In this document: positions 6,546 to 17,046 of the stretch, piece after piece
Layout: every line of letters starts with the position of its first letter
Position numbering within the stretch: position 1 is the first letter of the stretch
Sequence record: MZ501103
DNA: 64,000 nucleotides
Strand: one strand, 5' to 3'
Source of the DNA: Escherichia phage SelmaRatti
The notes under the pieces: generated by a model
The model's database searches: none
What the model saw: only the letters and a program-made list of their open reading frames with translations
Told to the model about the DNA's origin: nothing
Position numbers and translations under genes: made by a program

Positions 6546-6995
6546 TTACACCTTAAATTGTTGTAAGGATTTACACATTTCAATATCTGGGCTAAATTCT
6601 AGCATATAGCTAACAGCTTTTAAATCTTGAAGATTTATCCCAGTCCTACCGTTGACTATAACCGTTGGATACTGATACATCATAGCACCAGCACGCTCAA
6701 TAAGGTCATCAACGTTAGTAGTCAAATTTACTACTTGACCAGGATATTTCTTATACCATTCCCCAATACGCAAGTGTGCAAGGTTAGGTTCAACAGTTTC
6801 TAGCTCTTCACGTCGCTTGTTGTAAAACATATGGGTTTTATGATAAAAGTTACCACGAAAGGCATGAATATTACATACCTCTTCTAAGTCATAATCATCC
6901 CACAATGCTTTACCACTAGCAGTATCAGTACGGAAGGCTCGTACACCACTTTCAACACTCAAACCTACACCACTGATAATAATTAATCTACGCAT
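6546..6995 (-). CDS. truncated Sir2-like (sirtuin N-terminal half) protein, probably non-catalytic (149 aa)
   Basis: ISGVGLSVESGVRAFR matches sirtuin GAGIS.ESGIP.FR; TTNVDDLIERAG matches TQNID.LHERAG; the expected catalytic His position reads VIVNG (Asn); no zinc-ribbon or C-terminal half. Confidence 0.45.
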   Translation of the reverse strand: MRRLIIISGVGLSVESGVRAFRTDTASGKALWDDYDLEEVCNIHAFRGNFYHKTHMFYNKRREELETVEPNLAHLRIGEWYKKYPGQVVNLTTNVDDLIERAGAMMYQYPTVIVNGRTGINLQDLKAVSYMLEFSPDIEMCKSLQQFKV

Positions 6996-7835: not shown

Positions 7836-9662
7836 TTATTTAAGATTTAAGTGTTTTACTCTACCAAGCACTTCTTTTTGTTTCCCAGAATTGAAAGGCC
7901 TACTGCCCGGGGATCCCAGGTACCCGCAAACCCTACGTGTAACCTCTATTTCTTCAGATCCACAACCCGGACATACAAACCCACGTTCAGAAGCAACAGA
8001 TTCACCCATATATCCGCAGTTGAAACACTCATCAATTGGTATATTAACACCAATATAATGGCTACATTCTAGCCCCTTATCCACCACATACTCAAGAGCT
8101 TTGTGGAACTTTTTCATTTGAGGTAGTTCCACAAATGATATATTACCACCATTAGCTATTTTGGTAAAATGAGCTTCGTACTCAAATTTAGTATCTGGGG
8201 CTACTTTCTCTCTTACGTCCAAATGGTGACTATTAGTAAGATAGCCTTTATCTGTTAACCAAGAATACTCTGGGAACCTACGTTCTAGTAATTTATTAAA
8301 ACGATTACATAGAGACTCACTAGGAGTAGCATACAAGCTAAACCCAAGATTAGTCTCATTAGCTTTAACTTCGCAACGATTTTTTAGGTGAGTGAGAACT
8401 TCCTCTGTAAATTCAATACAATCCCTATGGGTTTGTGGTAGACCAAACATTATTTGGCACATCTCATAGACCCCAATGTATCCAAGAGATACAGAAGATC
8501 TACCCTCAAAAATAGGCCATACATACTCTTCCCCATCTAAACGCACACCAAAACCCCCGTGCATATAAAGAATAGGGGCTTGTTTAGCCTTCACTTTCTT
8601 AAGTCTATTTAAGAAAAAATCATGAGCTTCAAAAGCCTCATCCACATATTTGTCCAGAATATCCCAGAAATCTTCAAAAACCCCATCTGCCTCAGCAGCA
8701 ACCATAGGTAGATTAATAGACACTACACCTAAATTATTGCGCCCTGCAATTTCTCCGGAGGGGATAGCAGATAAAAAGCTACGACAACCCATAGGTGCTT
8801 TAAAATCACCAGTAACAGCTACAACTTTCTCGTAACTTAAATAGTCCGGGTACATACGGGTAGCAGAACACTCAAGTGCTAGCTGTTTTATATCGTAGTT
8901 AGGGTCGCCTGGATTTTTATTTAACCCTTCTTTAACTGAGAATACTAGTTTAGGGAAGATAGGGGTTGACTCAGCAGCACCTAAACCTTTAATACGGTTT
9001 TGGAGGATGGCTTTCTGAATCATCCTTTCCTCCCACCCCTGTCCTAGCCCAAAGCCAAGCGTAACAAAAGGAGTCTGTCCATTAGAGTTAAATAATGAAT
9101 TAGTTTCATACTCTAGGGCTTGGAATGCGTCATAACACTCTTTTTCAGTAAGTTCAGTAGCATATACAGCAGCTTTCCTTTCATCCTTGAGCCAACGTAG
9201 ACCACGACCCAGATGTTTATTGTAAGACTTTCTGACATACGGGGCTAGAACCTCATCGATACGATCAATAGAGGTGCCACCATACTGAGCACCAGATACT
9301 TGGGCAATAATCTGAGCAGTGATTGCACATGCAGTAGTTATGGATTTAGGAGTTTCAATATTTGCATTACCAATTTTAGTACCATTCTTCAGCATGCTAC
9401 CAAGGTCTACTAAGCAACAGTTAGTGTACCCCTGTGCTCTGTAATCCATATCATGAATGTGTATCTTACCTAGATTATGGGCGTCTAACAGGTGTTTAGG
9501 TAACTCTTGCGATACTAAATACTTGTTAACTTCCCCAGCTAATAAGTCTCTTTGAGTATGGAACATCTCACTAGGTTTATTAGCATTATTATGCTGTAAA
9601 TCCTTATCCGCAGTTAGAGTGAGCAGACCTTTGCAATTCTCAATTAATTCATTCTCTGTCAT
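7836..9662 (-). CDS. nrdD: anaerobic ribonucleoside-triphosphate reductase (class III RNR)
   Basis: 608 aa; C-terminal glycyl-radical motif RVCGYLG preceded by Cys-rich zinc ribbon (CFNCGY...CPGCGS). Confidence 0.85.
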   Translation of the reverse strand: MTENELIENCKGLLTLTADKDLQHNNANKPSEMFHTQRDLLAGEVNKYLVSQELPKHLLDAHNLGKIHIHDMDYRAQGYTNCCLVDLGSMLKNGTKIGNANIETPKSITTACAITAQIIAQVSGAQYGGTSIDRIDEVLAPYVRKSYNKHLGRGLRWLKDERKAAVYATELTEKECYDAFQALEYETNSLFNSNGQTPFVTLGFGLGQGWEERMIQKAILQNRIKGLGAAESTPIFPKLVFSVKEGLNKNPGDPNYDIKQLALECSATRMYPDYLSYEKVVAVTGDFKAPMGCRSFLSAIPSGEIAGRNNLGVVSINLPMVAAEADGVFEDFWDILDKYVDEAFEAHDFFLNRLKKVKAKQAPILYMHGGFGVRLDGEEYVWPIFEGRSSVSLGYIGVYEMCQIMFGLPQTHRDCIEFTEEVLTHLKNRCEVKANETNLGFSLYATPSESLCNRFNKLLERRFPEYSWLTDKGYLTNSHHLDVREKVAPDTKFEYEAHFTKIANGGNISFVELPQMKKFHKALEYVVDKGLECSHYIGVNIPIDECFNCGYMGESVASERGFVCPGCGSEEIEVTRRVCGYLGSPGSRPFNSGKQKEVLGRVKHLNLK

Positions 9663-10512
9663 TGATTATTTCCTCGATAAACTTTATAGCTACTTTTGGT
9701 TCAATATTGAAGAATTCCGTAGCACCGTCAAAATCTTTGTACTGGCAATTCTGCTCTTTAAAGTAGTTATGGGCTAATTTTTCTATTAGAACTGCACCAC
9801 TATATTCTCCAATTTCAAATACTTTAATTATTTCCAAATCAGTAAGGTGGCTACTAGACCTAATATGTAGAAGTCTACGCTCTGGATTGTTAGATCTACC
9901 TATTTTAACTCCGTGTGATGGGCTATGCATAACATATATCTTAGTACTTTCTAAATCTCTATAACTACAGTAAGGACAACCATTCCCTCTTAATACAGAT
10001 CCTGGAGTAGCTTCCCACCTATGCCCTGCACCACAAAGAAAGGCGGTCTTAGTATTCGCATTACTATACTCACCCACTATTCTGATATTTCTGGCAGCAA
10101 GACGATCATTTATAGTATTAACACTAAGTTTCTGTTTATTAGCAGCACAAGATGGGCAGCCACTACCTCTATTAATTATACTATTAAGTGTAGTAGCCCA
10201 CTCATGACCACAAACACACCTAAATTTAGTATTTATATCAGCACTATTTTTATAGCCGTTCAACAATGTAATACCTCTGTCCTGTAATATAGTATTAATT
10301 TTATCAATATCTAGTTTACGGCTACTAATAGAGCAAGTATGACACTTGGTCTTTCCATTCCTAATGGCGTCAAATTTAGCTGTCCATTGATGACCGTATT
10401 CGCACTGATACGTATGCCTATACCTAGAATTTTGATATGGCTTATCCACCATAGTAAAACCACGCTCGGCTAGGCATTTATCTACTTCTTCTTGAGTTAA
10501 TTTTTTCGGCAT
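9649..10512 (-). CDS. T5orf172-type endonuclease-like protein with repeated zinc-ribbon modules
   Basis: Three repeats of GHxW...G.GCPxC plus C-terminal IYVMHS...KIGRSNNPERRL (GIY-YIG-like); start moved to Met15 (MPKKLTQEE) by paralog alignment and RBS GGAGA. Confidence 0.6.
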   Translation of the reverse strand: MPKKLTQEEVDKCLAERGFTMVDKPYQNSRYRHTYQCEYGHQWTAKFDAIRNGKTKCHTCSISSRKLDIDKINTILQDRGITLLNGYKNSADINTKFRCVCGHEWATTLNSIINRGSGCPSCAANKQKLSVNTINDRLAARNIRIVGEYSNANTKTAFLCGAGHRWEATPGSVLRGNGCPYCSYRDLESTKIYVMHSPSHGVKIGRSNNPERRLLHIRSSSHLTDLEIIKVFEIGEYSGAVLIEKLAHNYFKEQNCQYKDFDGATEFFNIEPKVAIKFIEEIINDRE

Positions 10513-10540
10513 TCCACTTCTCCACAGAATTTTTACACCT

Positions 10541-10569
10541 ATTATACTAAACATTATCCACTATGTCAA
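10541..10569 (-). promoter_or_regulatory. sigma70-type promoter (TTGACA-17-TATAAT) on minus strand
   Basis: Reverse complement reads TTGACATAGTGGATAATGTTTAGTATAAT upstream of the 10512 start. Confidence 0.55.
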
Positions 10570-10735: not shown

Positions 10736-10811
10736 ATATTTGTAAGTTGATAAACAAGATCTCTTTGTTGATCCTCTGTTAGAAGCGAAGTACACTATAG
10801 GAGTGTTATTT

Positions 10812-11564
10812 ATGGGAAAAGCACGTCAAAAAAGAGAGAACCGCAATGGTTCAAGAAAGCGTGGCAACAAATATGAGAATAACGTAATTCAGGCTGATTT
10901 TTCTAATGATTACGCTAACCCAGTTGCTAAATCCCTAGTAGGTAAAAACCGAGAGCAAAAATCATATATCAATATGATCAAGAACAACACAGTGACTGTG
11001 GGTATTGGTGAGCCAGGTACTGGTAAAACCTTTATCCCGTCTGTTCTTGCAGCTCAGGAACTCGTAGACATTCACTCAGATATTGAGCAAGTGATTCTAG
11101 TCCGTCCTAATGAACCTCTAGGTAAGTCTCTTGGTATGCTTCCTGGTGATCTAGCAGAAAAGCTAGAGCCTTGGTTAGAGCCAATAGCTGATGGTATGAA
11201 ATGGGCCATCGGTGATCATGCCTATAATGGGTATGTCGAACGTCAGAAAATTAAATTTTTGGCTGTAGAACATGCTCGTGGCAGAACTTTCAACAACTCC
11301 TATGTAATTGTCGATGAAGCTCAGAATATTTCCGTTGAGGCAATGATTTGTCTCCTAACTCGTGTAGGACAAGACTGCCGTTTAATTATCTGTGGAGATA
11401 TAGCTCAGAAAGACATTAAAGGTGACTCAGGTCTAGCACTCCTTATGGAAGTCTATGAAAAATACGAAAATGCCCCATTCTCAATGATCGAATTGATTGA
11501 TAACGTTCGTTCTGTTGAGTCTAAAGCATTCTATGATATTTTTAAAGACATGGGGAAGGTGTAA
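10812..11564 (+). CDS. phoH: PhoH-like ATPase
   Basis: Walker A GEPGTGKTF; start placed at ATG 10812 after RBS AGGAG rather than the GTG at 10803. Confidence 0.8.
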   Translation: MGKARQKRENRNGSRKRGNKYENNVIQADFSNDYANPVAKSLVGKNREQKSYINMIKNNTVTVGIGEPGTGKTFIPSVLAAQELVDIHSDIEQVILVRPNEPLGKSLGMLPGDLAEKLEPWLEPIADGMKWAIGDHAYNGYVERQKIKFLAVEHARGRTFNNSYVIVDEAQNISVEAMICLLTRVGQDCRLIICGDIAQKDIKGDSGLALLMEVYEKYENAPFSMIELIDNVRSVESKAFYDIFKDMGKV

Positions 11565-11565
11565 T

Positions 11566-11763
11566 ATGGGAGACGTTGTACATCTACACCGAAAAACTAA
11601 AATACATCGTACTTCACTGAGTGCTGCTAATATGATTACACGTAAGGAAGGGGAAGAAAGTCCTAAGACTACCCTAGCGTGGAAAATTGTAACCTCAAAT
11701 CCAAATCGGCCCTTCAATTATAATGAACTAAGTACCTCAATAGATATTCTGCTGAGAACTTAA
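11566..11763 (+). CDS. hypothetical small protein (65 aa)
   Basis: ORF with RBS GGGGAAGGTG; the longer ORF-track version overlaps phoH. Confidence 0.4.
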   Translation: MGDVVHLHRKTKIHRTSLSAANMITRKEGEESPKTTLAWKIVTSNPNRPFNYNELSTSIDILLRT

Positions 11764-11907
11764 GTGGCCAAAAACTAGACTGACAACACAGAAGGCCTGG
11801 GTATGAAAATGCTCGGGCCTTTTCTATCAGAAAATTTTATTTGCCAAATGACTGAGAATAAAGTAAACTATTTCCTAAATCCTGATAACTATAAAAAGGA
11901 AAGCCAA

Positions 11908-14900
11908 ATGAGCCATCGCATTGAAAAAGTAATTAAACGTGACGGTACTGTAGAAGACTTTGCTCCTGAAAAACTCAATGGTTGGGCAGAGTATGGTTGC
12001 AAAACAGTTGATGTAAGTTGGTCAGCCATTACTATGGCTGCTCAAAAAACCCTACCTAAAGGGGTTGTAGATTCCGACACTCTTATGGACGCATTAATTA
12101 AAGCTGCTGAAAGTCTTATCAAAGATAACCCAGCATACGATGTGCCAGCAAAGGAATTACGTCTTGCGCAAATGCGTAAGCGCCTTTATGACTCTTTCGA
12201 ACCACCTTCTCTACGCTTCTTCCATGACCACATGGTTAGCGTAGGTACATGGGAAGACATGAGTGCATGGATTACCGATGAGCAATTTGAAGCTCTGAAT
12301 CAGGTTATCGACCATGATCGTGACCGTCTTTTTACTAGTGGTGGGCTGAAGCAGTTCTTTGATAAGTATTCACGTCGTAACATAGCCACTGGTGAAATTT
12401 ACGAAACCCCTCAATTCGCCTATATGGGTATGGCAATGGCGATGTTATCTCAACCTAACTGGACAATTCTAGATGCAATCGATCTCTACAATGCAATGTC
12501 GCTCCACAAGATCAACGTTCCTACGCCGCCATTGGTTGGCTTGCGCTCTAGTGACCGTGGATTTGCTAGTTGCTGCCTCGTGGATTCCACTGACACATTG
12601 GATTCAATCGACACAGCAGAGCACATCGTCTTCAAAATGGTCGCAGCCAGAGCGGGAATCGGGTATCATCTTGAAAGCAGATCAATTGCTGATCCGGTGC
12701 GAAATGGGGCATTCCCGCATTCCGGAAAACTGCCATATTATCGACACATTGACCGCTCAGTAAAGGCCAATACTCAGCAAACTCGTGGTGGTTCTGCTAC
12801 AGTGTCTTATCCATACTTCGACCCTGAAATCATTCAATTGATGCAGGTTAAGCAACAACGTGCTACAGATGAGAATAAAATCGATAAGATGGATTATTCT
12901 CTGAGCTTTAACAATCTTTTGTTAAAACGTTATCTTAAAAACGAAGATATTACGCTAATGTCATACTTCTATGCTCCAGAAGTTCATGAAGCGTTTTATA
13001 GTGATGACGAGGCTAAATTTGAAGAAATCTACGTGGCAGCGGAGAAACGTGTGGCATCTCTTACAAAAATCGACCACGAAGGAAAAACAGTTCCAGCAGC
13101 TCCTAAAGTCTCTGCAAAAGAAATCCTAGATACTTGGCTACGTATCCGAATGGAAACAGGACGTATGTACGCTCACCACATCGGGGAATCTAATCGTCAC
13201 GGTAACTTTCTTGATCCAATCCGTATGACTAACCTTTGTGTAGCTCCAGAAACAAAAATTTTAACCAAAAATGGTAACATAGAGATTATTGATTTAGTTG
13301 GTAAAGAAGTAGAGATTTGGAACGGGCAAGAATGGTCAACAGTTATCCCTGCTAAAACTGGGGAAGCTCAGGAGTTGATGAAAATCACATTCTCTGATGG
13401 ATCTACTATTGAATCTACTCTTTATCATAAGTTCTACCACCAGCCCAAATATGTAAGAGAGGATCGTAGTACCTCCTTCAAACAGGGTCTAGAAGAGGTA
13501 CGAGCAGTAGACTTGCAAGTAGGTATGAAAATGCCTAAATTTAGTAATCCTATTGTAGATCATGGAAATATGGTACTAAAATCTCCTTATACTAACGGTT
13601 TCTTCACTGGAGATGGAACTTATGGAAGACATGGAGAACCTAAGCTGTACTTCTATGAAAAAGGAGGCAAACTACCATTAGTGGATAAAATTGACGCAAA
13701 GATTCAGGGAAGTGGATTACTGGACAGCACAGGTAGACTGAGTTATATTGTTAAGTCTGATTTAATGCCGAAGTATTTTGTACCTGGCCCAGAATACACT
13801 ATTGATAGCCGTATCAAATGGTTAGAGGGATATTTAGATGCAGATGGCTGCATACAGAAAAATGGCACAACCCCTAGTATTGTGGTTGCTTCGGCAGAGC
13901 CTGATTTTCTAAGTAAAGTGAAGGATTTGTTACTAGAATTGGGGATTACTAGCAAGATTATTTTAGGACGCCAAGAAGGTGACTACGAGTTACCAGATGG
14001 TACTGGTAGTAGTAGTAAACTATACCACTGCAAGGAGACTAGTAGGCTTATTGTGGGGAGTAGTGGCTTCTGGAAACTTAAAGATTTAGGACTCTCTTTG
14101 GATAAAGAGAAACTCTTAAACCTAACACGCCCCAATAGAGACGCAACCCGTTTTGTAACTGTAACTAACGTTGAGTTTACTGGTCGTATTAGTGATACCT
14201 ATTGCTTTACAGAACCTAAATTAAACTTGGGTGTATTTAATGGCATTTTAGCTGGTAACTGTGTAGAGATTACTCAGCCTACACGCCCGTTCCACCACAT
14301 CACAGAGCTGTATAAGACAAAAGAGCAGCTTGATCAAATGAAGCCGGAGGATATTGGTGAAGTATCTCTGTGTAACTTAGGTGGTGTTGTACTTGGACGC
14401 ATGGAATCTCTGGCTGAGTGGGAAAAAACTTGCTACATCCTTCTGAAATTCGTTGATACAATTATTGAAATTCAGGATTATCCGTTCCCAACTATGGAAT
14501 ATACGGCTAAGAAACGTCGTAATGTTGGTATTGGCCTGATGAACGCAGCAGGTGCAATGGCAGCAGAAGGTCTGGCTTATGAAGGTATTGAAGCCCGTAA
14601 CTGGATTCACCGTGAGGCTGAAAAACTGTCTTACTTCCTGCATAAAGCCTCTGTACGCCTAGCTAAAGAACAGGGCGCATGTGAGTGGTTTGATCGTACT
14701 AAACCATCTAAAGGAATTCTGGTAATCGACACTTACAAGAAAACTGTTGATGAACTGGTATCCGTAGGTCTAGAAATGGATTGGGAATCTCTGCGTGCAG
14801 ATATTCTGAAATACGGTATGCGTAACTCTGTTCTGACTGCGCAGATGCCTGGAGAAAGCTCTTCTGTACTATTGGGTGTTACCAACTCAATTGAGCCACC

Positions 14901-15264
14901 TCGTAAGATTGTATCTATCAAGGGTAGTGCAGTGAATAAAGTAATTGCAATTGCTCCAGGTGCAACCGATTGGGATACTCTCATGAGCTATAAACTGGCC
15001 TATGATATTGATCGCACTGAGTGGATCAAGTGGAACGCCGTTTACCAAAAATTCTTGAGTCAGTCATCAAGTTTCCAGATGTATTATGATTACTCTAAAT
15101 TCGAGAATGAAATCATCCCTGGCCCAGTAGTAGTTCGTGACTTTATGACTGCGGTTAAGTATGGTATAAAAACCTGGTATTATGCTAACTTTAACACTGC
15201 GAATGGTGGAGGAGCTGGTGAAGAGGCGGCAACAGGTTGTGCATCAGGCGGTTGTCAGTTATAA
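11908..15264 (+). CDS. nrdA: ribonucleoside-diphosphate reductase large subunit (class Ia), intein-containing
   Basis: ATP-cone-like N-terminus after ATG 11908 (MSHRIEKVIKRDGT); active-site NLC/VEI split by an insert; exteins sum to about 777 aa. Confidence 0.85.
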   Translation: MSHRIEKVIKRDGTVEDFAPEKLNGWAEYGCKTVDVSWSAITMAAQKTLPKGVVDSDTLMDALIKAAESLIKDNPAYDVPAKELRLAQMRKRLYDSFEPPSLRFFHDHMVSVGTWEDMSAWITDEQFEALNQVIDHDRDRLFTSGGLKQFFDKYSRRNIATGEIYETPQFAYMGMAMAMLSQPNWTILDAIDLYNAMSLHKINVPTPPLVGLRSSDRGFASCCLVDSTDTLDSIDTAEHIVFKMVAARAGIGYHLESRSIADPVRNGAFPHSGKLPYYRHIDRSVKANTQQTRGGSATVSYPYFDPEIIQLMQVKQQRATDENKIDKMDYSLSFNNLLLKRYLKNEDITLMSYFYAPEVHEAFYSDDEAKFEEIYVAAEKRVASLTKIDHEGKTVPAAPKVSAKEILDTWLRIRMETGRMYAHHIGESNRHGNFLDPIRMTNLCVAPETKILTKNGNIEIIDLVGKEVEIWNGQEWSTVIPAKTGEAQELMKITFSDGSTIESTLYHKFYHQPKYVREDRSTSFKQGLEEVRAVDLQVGMKMPKFSNPIVDHGNMVLKSPYTNGFFTGDGTYGRHGEPKLYFYEKGGKLPLVDKIDAKIQGSGLLDSTGRLSYIVKSDLMPKYFVPGPEYTIDSRIKWLEGYLDADGCIQKNGTTPSIVVASAEPDFLSKVKDLLLELGITSKIILGRQEGDYELPDGTGSSSKLYHCKETSRLIVGSSGFWKLKDLGLSLDKEKLLNLTRPNRDATRFVTVTNVEFTGRISDTYCFTEPKLNLGVFNGILAGNCVEITQPTRPFHHITELYKTKEQLDQMKPEDIGEVSLCNLGGVVLGRMESLAEWEKTCYILLKFVDTIIEIQDYPFPTMEYTAKKRRNVGIGLMNAAGAMAAEGLAYEGIEARNWIHREAEKLSYFLHKASVRLAKEQGACEWFDRTKPSKGILVIDTYKKTVDELVSVGLEMDWESLRADILKYGMRNSVLTAQMPGESSSVLLGVTNSIEPPRKIVSIKGSAVNKVIAIAPGATDWDTLMSYKLAYDIDRTEWIKWNAVYQKFLSQSSSFQMYYDYSKFENEIIPGPVVVRDFMTAVKYGIKTWYYANFNTANGGGAGEEAATGCASGGCQL
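13237..14259 (+). mobile_element. intein with LAGLIDADG homing-endonuclease domain inside nrdA
   Basis: 341 aa in frame; starts with Cys after NL, ends in Asn followed by Cys of CVEI; motifs GFFTGDGT and LEGYLDADGC. Confidence 0.75.
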
Positions 15265-15272
15265 TAAAAACA

Positions 15273-15300
15273 AGGAGATCTTCGGGTCTCCTTTTTCTTT
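15273..15300 (+). terminator. rho-independent terminator after nrdA
   Basis: AGGAGA-TCTTCGGG-TCTCCT hairpin then TTTTTCTTT. Confidence 0.7.
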
Positions 15301-15310
15301 GAAATTTTAC

Positions 15311-15339
15311 TTGCTAATCGCTACCAGATTTGCTATAAT
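15311..15339 (+). promoter_or_regulatory. T5-type early promoter (TTGCTA-17-TATAAT)
   Basis: TTACTTGCTAATCGCTACCAGATTTGCTATAATATT upstream of nrdB. Confidence 0.65.
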
Positions 15340-15370
15340 ATTCCTGAAATAGTGAGAAAGAGGAAAATCA

Positions 15371-16516
15371 ATGACTACTTTACTAAACCTGAATTGGGAT
15401 CATACTAATGCTGACCTTTTCCTGGGAGATTCTCTCGGTATCGCAGATTATGTACGTGTAGCACATCCAGAACTAGAACGTCTGGCGTTATTAGCTCGCT
15501 CTCAATTTTGGACTGAAACTGAAATCAGTCTGGAAGCAGATAAGAAACAATGGCCTAATCTCCCACGAGAAATTCAGGAAATTACCCTCCTGAACTTAGC
15601 ATGGCAGACTCAAACAGATTCTTTCATTAGTCGCGCGCCTGAAGCAGCTATTATGCCGCTTGTAAGTCGTCCAGAATTGGAAGGCATGCTCAAACAGTGG
15701 AGCTATTTTGAAGACCTGCATAGTCGTGCTTATAGCAATATTATTCGTAATGTTCTGACTGATCCAGCAGAATTTATTGATTCTGTAACCAAAAACCAAG
15801 AAGCATTCGCACGCATCGCTGATTCTGTTGAACTATTCGATGAACTGTACCAGTTAGGTCAGTATTTCATCGCAGTACGCGATCATCGTGGTGACAATAC
15901 ATATCCAGAAACTGAGTTCCCTGAAGTTAAACGTGAAACTCAGGCTAAGCTATTAGACGCTTACTTTGCGATCTATGGTCTGGAAGCAATGCAGTTTTAC
16001 GCATCCTTTGCATGTACCTTTGCATTAGCAGAGAACGATATTCTGCAAGGTATTGCTAAAAATCTGCAATTAATCGCTAAAGATGAAGCTCTGCACACTC
16101 AGATGTCCAAAGCAATCATCCAGATTATGTTCCAGCAGTTTGACAAAGATCTGGTGGATGAAGCAGTGGCTAAAGCACCAGCACAGCTCCTGAAAACTCT
16201 GAAAACTGAAATTGAATGGGGTCACTTCATTTTCAAAGGTCGTAGTCTTATTGGCTTGAATGCAGAACTTCTAGAAGAATATCTGTACTTTGTGGGGCGT
16301 AATGCATTTATGCACATCGGTGTAGAATGGCCTAGTCATTTACCAGCAATCACTAAGAACCCCATTCCGTGGATCATGAACTGGCTGGATACCACTTCTT
16401 TACAGCCTGCTCCACAAGAAATCCAGATCGGTGCAGCATATCGTGTAGGTCAAGTCACCGAAACCTCTACTGATACTCTGAAAGATCTGGGTAATGAATT
16501 TGGAGATTTCTTATGA
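15371..16516 (+). CDS. nrdB: ribonucleoside-diphosphate reductase small subunit
   Basis: 381 aa directly downstream of nrdA; length and position typical of class Ia beta subunit. Confidence 0.8.
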   Translation: MTTLLNLNWDHTNADLFLGDSLGIADYVRVAHPELERLALLARSQFWTETEISLEADKKQWPNLPREIQEITLLNLAWQTQTDSFISRAPEAAIMPLVSRPELEGMLKQWSYFEDLHSRAYSNIIRNVLTDPAEFIDSVTKNQEAFARIADSVELFDELYQLGQYFIAVRDHRGDNTYPETEFPEVKRETQAKLLDAYFAIYGLEAMQFYASFACTFALAENDILQGIAKNLQLIAKDEALHTQMSKAIIQIMFQQFDKDLVDEAVAKAPAQLLKTLKTEIEWGHFIFKGRSLIGLNAELLEEYLYFVGRNAFMHIGVEWPSHLPAITKNPIPWIMNWLDTTSLQPAPQEIQIGAAYRVGQVTETSTDTLKDLGNEFGDFL

Positions 16517-17046
16517 TTACAGCAATGTATGCAGTTGGGCCGAATGGAGAGTTCGGCCTCCGAGGTAAACTTCCCTGGGGTTCCTTCAAAGAAGAACTAG
16601 ATGCTTTCTATTCTCAACTGGACGTGTTGAATCCAGATAACATCATCATTGGTGCGGGTACTTATTTAGCACTTCCAGAAGTTGTTCGGCAACGTATGAT
16701 TGGAGAATCTGACCTCTTTATTCGTGCGGATCGTCCTCTGCCTGATGATATTAAACATGGTATTTACACTCCAATTTCTAAGATTGGGGATACATTACCT
16801 ACATTCTTAAAAGATCAACAGACAGTGGTTTTAGGTGGCGCAACATTACTGTACGAAATGTATATTCATGGACATATTGAAAGTGCTTTTGTATCAACAA
16901 TCTTTAGTAATCAAAAACTAGAGGCAGATGTACATCTGGATAATATGATTCTAGATTACAACTATGAATCTACTCGTTTAGTTTACGCAACCGGCGCAAA
17001 CAGTGATAACAGCCTGCGATTTGTACAGGAATTGGTTACTTATTAA
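16513..17046 (+). CDS. frd: dihydrofolate reductase
   Basis: 177 aa; start overlaps nrdB stop (ATGA); N-terminus MITAMYAVGPNGEFGLRGKLPW is DHFR-like. Confidence 0.75.
   Translation: MITAMYAVGPNGEFGLRGKLPWGSFKEELDAFYSQLDVLNPDNIIIGAGTYLALPEVVRQRMIGESDLFIRADRPLPDDIKHGIYTPISKIGDTLPTFLKDQQTVVLGGATLLYEMYIHGHIESAFVSTIFSNQKLEADVHLDNMILDYNYESTRLVYATGANSDNSLRFVQELVTY

What the first reader, a model, noticed from the sequence alone, without database searches (positions are those of the whole stretch)
13237..14259. LAGLIDADG intein splitting the NrdA active site
Seen in sequence: a 341-aa in-frame insert sits between NL and CVEI of the class Ia RNR active-site motif, begins with Cys, ends with Asn followed by Cys, and carries two LAGLIDADG-like motifs (GFFTGDGT, LEGYLDADGC). 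The penultimate residue is Gly rather than the usual His. Established knowledge: inteins commonly target RNR active sites. Inference: a probably active, mobile intein whose splicing is required for aerobic dNTP synthesis.
Basis: partly seen in the sequence, partly recalled or inferred. Interest (0 to 1): 0.5.

Follow-up and report, generated by a model that had tools for sequence, protein, structure and literature searches.

The report
Homing-endonuclease intein in phage NrdA
A T5-like phage's aerobic ribonucleotide reductase gene carries a self-splicing, probably mobile protein insert (an intein with a LAGLIDADG homing endonuclease) directly in front of the catalytic cysteine; it is real, but it is an ordinary member of a large known family and is already annotated in GenBank.

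Summary
Window 13237-14259 encodes 341 in-frame residues (CVAPET...GILAGN) between ...MTNL and CVEITQP of NrdA. A related T5-like phage (HildyBeyeler) lacks exactly these residues, and only 4 of 445 T5-like records carry them. The insert passes the curated intein N-terminal and LAGLIDADG models. Its predicted fold matches solved intein-endonucleases (TliVMA, PI-SceI, PI-PfuI). It keeps Cys1, T61/H64, D320, Asn341, Cys+1 and both LAGLIDADG aspartates (D126, D203). The +1 Cys is the equivalent of E. coli C439, the thiyl-radical cysteine. [quoted passage not shown] The penultimate Gly is the rule for this family, not a defect: about 165 of 185 relatives scored have Gly and none has His. The terminal residue is Asn or Gln. 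One relative, very probably the Chilo iridescent virus RNR intein, has been shown to splice. Among the three intein-bearing T5-like phages, the intein's synonymous divergence (0.05-0.06) is 2-4 times lower than that of the flanking exteins, and its dN/dS is 0.07-0.16. This fits recent horizontal spread of a selected, functional element. The exact protein is GenBank QXV84363.1, "intein-containing ... precursor". Verdict: correct reading, already known, low interest.

The parts
11848..15264 (+). nrdA precursor gene (class Ia RNR alpha subunit with the intein). The mechanical ORF starts at 11803. The deposited protein QXV84363.1 starts at M16 (11848). Phage SP3's annotation starts at the equivalent of 11908.
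   Evidence: ORF list. PF02867 E 1e-112 and TIGR02506 569 bits against a cut-off of 341. Exact match to NCBI QXV84363.1.
11848..13236 (+). N-extein, ending ...DPIRMTNL (the N437-L438 equivalents).
   Evidence: Alignment with the intein-free alleles and with E. coli R1 4r1r.
13237..14259 (+). Intein, 341 aa: a HINT splicing domain interrupted by a double-motif LAGLIDADG endonuclease domain.
   Evidence: TIGR01445 34 bits (cut-off 24.5) and PF14528 50.7 bits (cut-off 22.5). AF2 model with pLDDT 80.5 matches TliVMA, PI-SceI and PI-PfuI inteins at E 1e-10 to 7e-14. Absent from 441 of 445 T5-like records.
13237..13254 (+). Block A (CVAPET), with the Cys1 nucleophile.
   Evidence: Cys1 is invariant in 14 of 14 aligned phage homologues and present in all 80 IMG/VR loci.
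13417..13428 (+). Block B TxxH motif (T61-L-Y-H64).
   Evidence: T and H are invariant in the 14-sequence alignment.
13597..13620 (+). LAGLIDADG motif 1 (GFFTGDGT), with the putative catalytic Asp126.
   Evidence: The motif is conserved in most homologues and degenerate in the Caulobacter phage copies.
13828..13851 (+). LAGLIDADG motif 2 (GYLDADGC), with the putative catalytic Asp203.
   Evidence: PF14528 match over intein aa 194-280. Alignment.
14191..14217 (+). Block F (SDTYCFTEP), with the conserved Asp320.
   Evidence: The Asp is invariant in 14 of 14 homologues.
14236..14259 (+). Block G (FNGILAGN): penultimate Gly340 and terminal Asn341.
   Evidence: Family consensus is FNGILTG(N/Q).
14260..14262 (+). 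+1 Cys codon. It is both the C-extein nucleophile for splicing and the equivalent of the E. coli C439 thiyl-radical cysteine.
   Evidence: HMMER alignment to 4r1r.
14260..15264 (+). C-extein (CVEITQP...GCASGGCQL) plus the stop codon.
15371..16516 (+). nrdB, the partner small subunit (context only).
   Evidence: PF00268 E 3e-36.

Best explanation
The insert is a canonical class 1 intein with an embedded monomeric, two-motif LAGLIDADG homing endonuclease. It sits in the nrdA gene of a T5-like (Tequintavirus) phage, immediately N-terminal to the thiyl-radical cysteine.

Inferred mechanism, from the conserved residues and established intein chemistry:
1. The 1138-aa precursor is translated.
2. Cys1 performs the N-S acyl shift, assisted by T61 and H64.
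3. The +1 Cys (the C439 equivalent) attacks the thioester to form the branched intermediate.
4. Asn341 cyclises to release the intein. There is no penultimate His, which is the normal state for this family.
5. An S-N shift rebuilds the ...TNL-CVEI... finger loop and gives active NrdA.

The released intein, or the precursor, would act as a site-specific endonuclease. It would cut intein-free nrdA alleles of co-infecting relatives across the ...ACAAACCTT|TGTGTTGAAATT... site, and repair would copy the intein into them (homing).

Shown here: the identity of the element, its boundaries, its insertion point, its fold, the conserved residues, the polymorphism and the selection signatures. Inferred: splicing and cleavage activities.
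For: Boundaries and polymorphism: there is a precise 341-aa indel relative to HildyBeyeler and five other intein-free alleles. Only 4 of 445 T5-like records carry the insert.

Family models: intein_Nterm TIGR01445 and LAGLIDADG_3 PF14528 both score above their curated cut-offs.

Fold: the AF2 model (pLDDT 80.5, pTM 0.82) matches solved intein-endonucleases over its full length. TliVMA gives 6.6e-14, PI-SceI 4e-11 and PI-PfuI 7e-11. The parts match mini-inteins and I-DmoI.

Residues: Cys1, T61/H64, D320, N341, Cys+1, D126 and D203 are all present and conserved across homologues.

Insertion point: homologous inteins (26-53% identity) sit at the identical SNL|C-E point. This holds in 13 phage lineages and in 75 of 80 IMG/VR loci.

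Penultimate residue: Gly in 67 of 80 IMG/VR loci and 98 of 105 parsed cluster representatives; no His in any.

Experimental precedent: L024 is a 43%-identical relative ending GQ|C, on a 212,482-bp contig with 28% GC, so very probably Chilo iridescent virus. The CIV RNR intein splices with its native Gln (PMC4031507).

Selection and spread: intein dS is 0.052-0.061 against flanking extein dS of 0.13-0.23 (Fisher p 6e-5 to 3e-3). Intein dN/dS is 0.07-0.16 (binomial p 1e-5 to 1e-4). Extein dN/dS is about 0.01 between intein-bearing phages, which implies NrdA is still functional there.

Public record and literature: the depositor's name for the identical protein is 'intein-containing ribonucleoside diphosphate reductase alpha subunit precursor'. 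Published work calls this site the most frequent RNR intein insertion point (PMC2677866).
Against: - No experimental evidence exists for splicing or cleavage of this particular copy.
- No C-terminal splicing-region HMM (e.g. TIGR01443) matched at E <= 0.1. PF14890 did not match either, although it is recorded for some relatives.
- The residue where many relatives have His in block F (KRHMG) is Asn here (KLNLG).
- The lower dS of the intein could partly reflect mosaic recombination of the flanks rather than endonuclease-driven homing. Extein divergence is clearly patchy.
- NrdA may be dispensable for the phage, so selection for splicing is weaker than for an essential gene.
Confidence: 0.93

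Rival explanations
1. The intein is splicing-competent but its endonuclease is decayed or inactive. It would now be inherited only vertically or moved by general phage recombination, the late stage of the homing cycle.
For: Cleavage cannot be tested here. Extein divergence is mosaic, so ordinary recombination between T5-like phages is frequent. Some relatives (the Caulobacter phage inteins) have clearly lost the catalytic Asp in both motifs, which shows that decay does happen in this family.
Against: Both LAGLIDADG aspartates (D126, D203) are intact. dN/dS over the whole intein, most of which is endonuclease domain, is 0.07-0.16 among three copies. A dead endonuclease domain should drift. Intein dS is 2-4 times lower than flank dS, which indicates recent lateral spread.
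Confidence: 0.2
2. The insert is a non-splicing or poorly splicing element that inactivates the phage NrdA. Lack of the penultimate His would cripple Asn cyclisation, and the phage would live on host RNR and its own NrdD.
For: Penultimate Gly replaces the canonical His. Reference 75 of the review PMC4031507 (Wang & Liu 1997, Chlamydomonas ClpP intein) is, from my own recollection of that paper, a penultimate-Gly intein that splices poorly in E. coli. The window encodes NrdD, and the host has its own RNR.
Against: Penultimate Gly is conserved in about 90% of several hundred family members and His is never seen. A family member with the G-Q ending is reported to splice efficiently (PMC4031507). 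The review states that a number of functional inteins have alternative G:6 residues. Exteins in intein-bearing phages remain under very strong purifying selection (dN/dS ~0.01). All other splicing residues are intact.
Confidence: 0.04
3. The insert is not an intein but an ordinary lineage-specific RNR domain, or a group I intron carrying a LAGLIDADG ORF.
For: LAGLIDADG ORFs are common in group I introns, and phage RNR genes often carry introns (PMC3653736).
Against: The insert is absent from 441 of 445 close relatives with a precise in-frame boundary. HINT motifs and fold are present. The reading frame is continuous. No Rfam intron or any other RNA family was found in 11000-16600 at E <= 0.5.
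Confidence: 0.01

Closest known systems
Chilo iridescent virus (IIV-6) RNR large-subunit intein (CIV RIR1), characterised by Pietrokovski and co-workers
   Same: Same insertion point (SNL|C-E-I, before the thiyl-radical Cys). 43% identity over the full length to locus L024, which is very probably this virus (212,482-bp contig, 28% GC). Same block architecture, same LAGLIDADG domain and the same penultimate Gly.
   Different: CIV ends in Gln (G-Q|C) whereas the window's intein ends in Asn (G-N|C). The host is a eukaryotic virus.
Vibrio phage ICP1 gp203 NrdA intein (annotated as intein-containing precursor; discussed in PMC3037004 and PMC10448857)
   Same: Homologous (about 40% identity, 100% coverage), same site, LAGLIDADG type, in a phage class Ia NrdA.
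   Different: It ends G-Q|C, it is fixed in the ICP1 lineage rather than sporadic, and the phage family is different.
NrdA inteins of other Demerecviridae: Salmonella phages SP3, Kenya-K36 and Kenya-K42 (98-99% aa identity); Proteus phages PM135 and PL1 (53%); Vibrio phage PG07 (41%)
   Same: Same site and same family. SP3, K36 and K42 carry the same intein allele.
   Different: In those records the gene is annotated only as ribonucleotide reductase (PM135 has no annotation there). SP3 carries a second, unrelated 304-aa intein upstream.
Bacillus phage SPbeta bnrdE (RIR1) intein (Lazarevic et al. 1998, cited in PMC3653736)
   Same: The SPbeta-like phage BUCT082 has a homologous intein (23% identity) at the same SNL|C-E point, ending TGN|C.
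   Different: Class Ib NrdE host protein, a larger intein (about 385 aa), and distant in sequence. The original paper was not available to read.
PI-PfuI, PI-SceI and TliVMA intein-endonucleases (solved structures 1dq3, 1vde, 7qsu)
   Same: Same overall two-domain fold (HINT plus double LAGLIDADG), by Foldseek E 7e-14 to 7e-11 and TMq 0.60-0.64.
   Different: Only 11-18% sequence identity. Those proteins are larger, with extra DNA-recognition or stirrup regions, and they have the canonical penultimate His (the last point is from memory and was not tested here).

Membership tests
Class 1 intein (HINT protein-splicing element) | In-frame insertion in a conserved host protein, absent from orthologous alleles with a precise boundary | tested here: met
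   HildyBeyeler and 5 other alleles lack exactly the 341 aa. 441 of 445 T5-like records lack it.
Class 1 intein (HINT protein-splicing element) | N-terminal nucleophile (Cys1/Ser1) and block B TxxH | tested here: met
   C1, T61 and H64 are present and invariant among 14 homologues. TIGR01445 scores 34 bits against a cut-off of 24.5.
Class 1 intein (HINT protein-splicing element) | C-terminal Asn (or Gln/Asp) followed by a Cys/Ser/Thr +1 nucleophile | tested here: met
   N341 | C+1. The family shows N or Q followed by C.
Class 1 intein (HINT protein-splicing element) | Penultimate His (G:6). This is a common assisting residue, not strictly defining. | tested here: not met
   The residue is Gly340. 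There is no His among about 185 relatives scored. The review PMC4031507 states that functional inteins with alternative G:6 residues exist. No intein C-terminal HMM hit at E <= 0.1.
Class 1 intein (HINT protein-splicing element) | HINT fold | tested here: met
   The AF2 model matches full-length inteins and mini-inteins (Ssp DnaB, gp41-1, MchDnaB, hedgehog Hint).
Class 1 intein (HINT protein-splicing element) | Autocatalytic protein splicing that yields ligated exteins | not testable with these tools
   Only indirect evidence is available: extein dN/dS of about 0.01 in intein-bearing phages, and a family member reported to splice.
LAGLIDADG homing endonuclease (monomeric, two-motif) | Two LAGLIDADG helices, each ending in a catalytic acidic residue | tested here: met
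   GFFTGD126G and GYLDAD203G. PF14528 scores 50.7 bits against a cut-off of 22.5. I-DmoI and I-Tsp061I fold matches at E 5e-4 to 3e-3.
LAGLIDADG homing endonuclease (monomeric, two-motif) | Site-specific cleavage of the element-free allele, and homing | not testable with these tools
   Indirect evidence only: sporadic distribution (4 of 445 records), intein dS 2-4 times lower than flank dS, and dN/dS of 0.07-0.16.
RNR thiyl-radical-site intein family (alleles of CIV RIR1, ICP1 gp203 and SPbeta RIR1) | Insertion directly N-terminal to the thiyl-radical Cys of class I/II RNR | tested here: met
   The junction lies between the L438 and C439 equivalents. Same point in 13 of 13 phage homologues and 75 of 80 IMG/VR loci. 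The site is described in PMC2677866.
RNR thiyl-radical-site intein family (alleles of CIV RIR1, ICP1 gp203 and SPbeta RIR1) | Full-length sequence homology, including the FNGILTG(N/Q) C-terminus | tested here: met
   26-53% identity over 99-100% of the query. 458 cluster representatives at E <= 1e-30. The window's C-terminus is FNGILAGN.
Class Ia RNR alpha subunit (NrdA), the host protein | NrdA/NrdE barrel, catalytic N437/C439/E441, C225/C462, the Y730/Y731 pair, C-terminal Cys pair, and an adjacent NrdB | tested here: met
   TIGR02506 scores 569 bits against a cut-off of 341. The alignment to E. coli R1 (E 1e-142) shows all of these residues aligned. nrdB lies at 15371-16516. The ATP-cone match is weak (16 bits, below cut-off).

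The most novel reading that the evidence does not exclude
This RNR-site intein family, which has no penultimate His in any member sampled, almost always has Gly there, and interchanges Asn and Gln freely at the terminus, may be a mechanistically distinct sub-class. C-terminal cyclisation would be catalysed by other residues. Because Cys1 and the +1 thiyl-radical Cys could form a disulfide, splicing might be redox-gated, tying maturation of the aerobic RNR to oxygen or redox state in a phage that also carries an anaerobic NrdD. Nothing here tests this. It is only not excluded.
Probability: 0.08. Interest if true: 0.5.

Novelty: already known. Interest (0 to 1): 0.12.

Why it matters
It matters little beyond correct annotation. 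The gene should be labelled an intein-containing NrdA precursor. The deposited record for the identical protein already says so, whereas the SP3, K36 and K42 records do not.

Two modest points of value came out of the work:
- T5-like phages offer a clean natural polymorphism: three or four intein-plus genomes against more than 440 intein-minus genomes, with intact target sites. The dS contrast indicates recent spread. This would make a convenient system for measuring intein homing in mixed phage infections.
- The survey documents that this very large RNR-site intein family never uses the textbook penultimate His. That is relevant to people engineering inteins.

Tried and rejected
- Direct phmmer of the intein against PDB sequences found nothing at E <= 1. 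Homology to solved inteins became visible only through the predicted fold.
- PHROGs has no family for the intein.
- The word-indexed protein search returned only 25 hits. The exhaustive representative search and the IMG/VR scan were needed to see how large the family is.
- I looked for a co-conversion tract, meaning private SNPs shared by intein-plus alleles next to the junction. The three intein-plus alleles differ from one another at the few junction-proximal synonymous sites (ACT/ACA, GTA/GTT, GAG/GAA), so no clear tract exists. The per-100-nt mismatch profile is mosaic. I therefore relied on dS contrasts instead.
- A group I intron was considered and rejected.
- An ordinary RNR domain was considered and rejected.
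- The original SPbeta intein papers (PMC19153, PMC55833) are not held. An exact-protein contig look-up found nothing, so the source phage could not be named. From the QXV accession range I suspect, but did not verify, a BASEL-collection T5-like phage.

Full report
**What is in the sequence.** The window comes from a T5-like phage (Demerecviridae, Tequintavirus). A 24-kb stretch matches Salmonella and Escherichia T5-like phages at about 93% identity over 80% of its length. nrdA itself is 95-96% identical to Salmonella phages Kenya-K36 and SP3 and to Escherichia phage HildyBeyeler. One ORF, 11803..15264 (+), encodes 1153 aa. Window 13237-14259 translates to 341 residues with no stop. It begins CVAPETKILT and ends FNGILAGN, and it lies between ...DPIRMTNL and CVEITQPT.

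**It is an insertion, not a normal RNR domain.** I aligned the protein with those of HildyBeyeler, SP3 and K36. HildyBeyeler lacks precisely the 341 residues, and the flanks are otherwise identical on both sides. Five further intein-free alleles (slur09, chee24, Kenya-K20, Tennessee, PH204) show the same precise gap at the DNA level. Of 445 phage records matching nrdA, only 4 cover the insert. These are SP3 under two accessions, Kenya-K36 and Kenya-K42, and all four encode a 98-99% identical intein. No Rfam family, and in particular no group I intron, matches 11000-16600 at E <= 0.5.

**Where it sits.** With the insert removed, the 777-aa extein product matches E. coli R1 (4r1r) at E = 1e-142. 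The motif ...MTNL|CVEI... aligns with ...QSNL|CLEI..., that is N437-L438|C439-L440-E441. The C-extein +1 nucleophile is therefore the thiyl-radical cysteine. The other landmark residues also align in the same call: C225, C462, Y730/Y731 and the C-terminal Cys pair. TIGR02506 (NrdE_NrdA) scores above its cut-off, and nrdB follows at 15371-16516. Dassa et al. [quoted passage not shown]

**It is an intein with a LAGLIDADG endonuclease.**
- Curated models: TIGR01445 (intein N-terminal splicing region) scores 34 bits against a cut-off of 24.5. PF14528 (LAGLIDADG_3) scores 50.7 bits against a cut-off of 22.5. No C-terminal splicing-region model matched.
- Predicted fold: an AlphaFold2 model built on a 13-sequence alignment has mean pLDDT 80.5 and pTM 0.82. 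Foldseek against the PDB returns intein-endonucleases over the full length: TliVMA 6.6e-14, PI-SceI 4e-11, PI-PfuI 7e-11, and PI-TkoII (2cw7). The halves match mini-inteins and hedgehog Hint domains on one side and I-DmoI on the other.
- Residues: the mechanistic residues are all present. They are C1, T61/H64 (block B), D320 (block F), N341 and C+1, plus the acidic residue of each LAGLIDADG motif, D126 and D203.

**The penultimate Gly is the family norm.**
- tblastn found homologous inteins (26-53% identity, about 100% coverage) in 338 phage records. I fetched 13 diverse ones: Proteus PM135, Acinetobacter Bestia, Staphylococcus RP15, Aeromonas PhAER-4, Vibrio PG07, ICP1 and 1.187.O, Rheinheimera Barba30A, Corynebacterium C3PO, Pectobacterium DU_PP_I, Caulobacter CcrColossus and CcrMagneto (annotated 'intein'), and the SPbeta-like BUCT082. 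All are inserted at SNL|C-E. Twelve of the 13 end ...G-(N/Q)|C; Bestia ends M-N|C.
- In 80 IMG/VR loci, the penultimate residue is Gly in 67, Ser in 12, Lys in 1 and His in none. The terminal residue is Gln in 63 and Asn in 17. The insertion site is SNL|C in 75.
- The exhaustive search of 1.84 billion representatives found 458 clusters at E <= 1e-30. Of the 105 top hits whose C-terminus I could parse, 98 have Gly and none has His.
- Locus L024 is 43% identical and ends GILTGQ|C. It comes from a 212,482-bp contig with 28% GC, which matches Chilo iridescent virus / IIV-6 (about 212 kb, 28.6% GC; PMC6669658). The CIV RNR intein is reported to splice with its native Gln better than with Asn, and functional inteins without His at G:6 are documented (PMC4031507).
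- The Gly is therefore not evidence of a defect.

**Evidence for function and mobility.** I compared the three intein-bearing T5-like phages (window, SP3, K36).
- Synonymous divergence: dS is 0.052-0.061 in the intein, against 0.13-0.17 in the N-extein and 0.16-0.23 in the proximal C-extein. Fisher p ranges from 6e-5 to 3e-3.
- Distal C-extein: the window's distal C-extein is close to the intein-free HildyBeyeler and Tennessee alleles (97.4%) and far from SP3 and K36 (90.6%).
- Interpretation: the intein copies share a more recent ancestor than the genes they sit in. Homing into diverged alleles predicts this. General mosaic recombination could contribute as well, and no clean co-conversion tract is visible.
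- Selection on the intein: dN/dS is 0.07-0.16, far below neutrality (binomial p 1e-5 to 1e-4). The whole element, most of which is endonuclease domain, has therefore been under purifying selection.
- Selection on the host gene: extein dN/dS is about 0.01 between intein-bearing phages, so NrdA remains functional there. That requires splicing, because the insert splits the catalytic finger loop.
- Composition: the intein's GC3 (0.31) is somewhat lower than that of the exteins (0.37).

**Novelty.** The identical protein, starting at M16 (window 11848-15261), is NCBI QXV84363.1. It is named [quoted passage not shown] and sits on a 107,080-bp contig. Homologous NrdA inteins have been noted in ICP1 (PMC3037004). 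They are also described as a recurrent configuration of phage LAGLIDADG genes (PMC10448857). The feature is therefore already known. What this work adds is documentation of three things: its rarity among T5-like phages, the dS contrast, and the family-wide absence of the penultimate His.

**Verdict.** This is an ordinary, already annotated member of the largest RNR intein family. Splicing and endonuclease activities are strongly suggested by comparative evidence but remain untested. Interest is low.

Noticed in passing
window 9649-10554 (-): A 301-aa free-standing homing-endonuclease-like gene (T5orf172/MUG113 nuclease domain plus DUF4379/CapR zinc-finger repeats; phrog_681 'endonuclease' at E 2e-63). 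It lies between nrdD (7836-9662, -) and phoH (10803-11564, +) and overlaps the nrdD start by 14 nt. HildyBeyeler and Kenya-K36 have only about 480 nt between nrdD and phoH, so it is a second variable mobile element in the same nucleotide-metabolism cluster.
   Followed up: partly
L002 (Salmonella phage SP3) 2479-3390; equivalent empty site in the window between nt 12780 and 12781: SP3's nrdA carries a second 304-aa intein (CYSADTEVL...TVCGN|S) between ...ANTQQ and (T->S)RGGS. It is absent from the window, K36 and HildyBeyeler. It shares no significant sequence similarity with the window's intein (best BLASTP E 0.07), and it also has a penultimate Gly.
   Followed up: partly
window 15265-15370; L001 4041-4556: HildyBeyeler and Kenya-K20 have an annotated ~170-aa homing endonuclease gene between nrdA and nrdB. 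The window, SP3 and K36 have only a ~106-nt spacer there.
   Followed up: no
P0002, P0003, P0010 (metagenomic proteins): Inteins 32-36% identical to this one sit in NrdB (PF00268) rather than NrdA and end GILTGQ|S. The same intein lineage has therefore colonised both RNR subunits.
   Followed up: no
L026, L035-L037, L047, L052, L058, L073, L077, L078, L082, L083, L087, L096 (IMG/VR GVMAG contigs) and L024: Many full-length relatives (34-43% identity) lie on giant-virus (NCLDV) metagenome-assembled contigs and on what is very probably Chilo iridescent virus. This one intein family is therefore shared between bacteriophages and eukaryotic large DNA viruses.
   Followed up: partly
L088, L090, L092: A few relatives are inserted in a ...TVNP|C... 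or ...NPC|C... context rather than SNL|C. This looks like a different RNR class (NrdJ-like). One of them ends GQ|S.
   Followed up: no
window 11803-11910: The nrdA start codon is ambiguous. The mechanical ORF starts at 11803 and K36's annotation starts slightly upstream of that. QXV84363.1 and HildyBeyeler start at M16 (11848), and SP3's annotation starts at M36 (11908).
   Followed up: no
window 6546-6995 (-): A 149-aa ORF with a Sir2-family match (PF02146, E 7e-12) lies downstream of nrdD on the minus strand.
   Followed up: no
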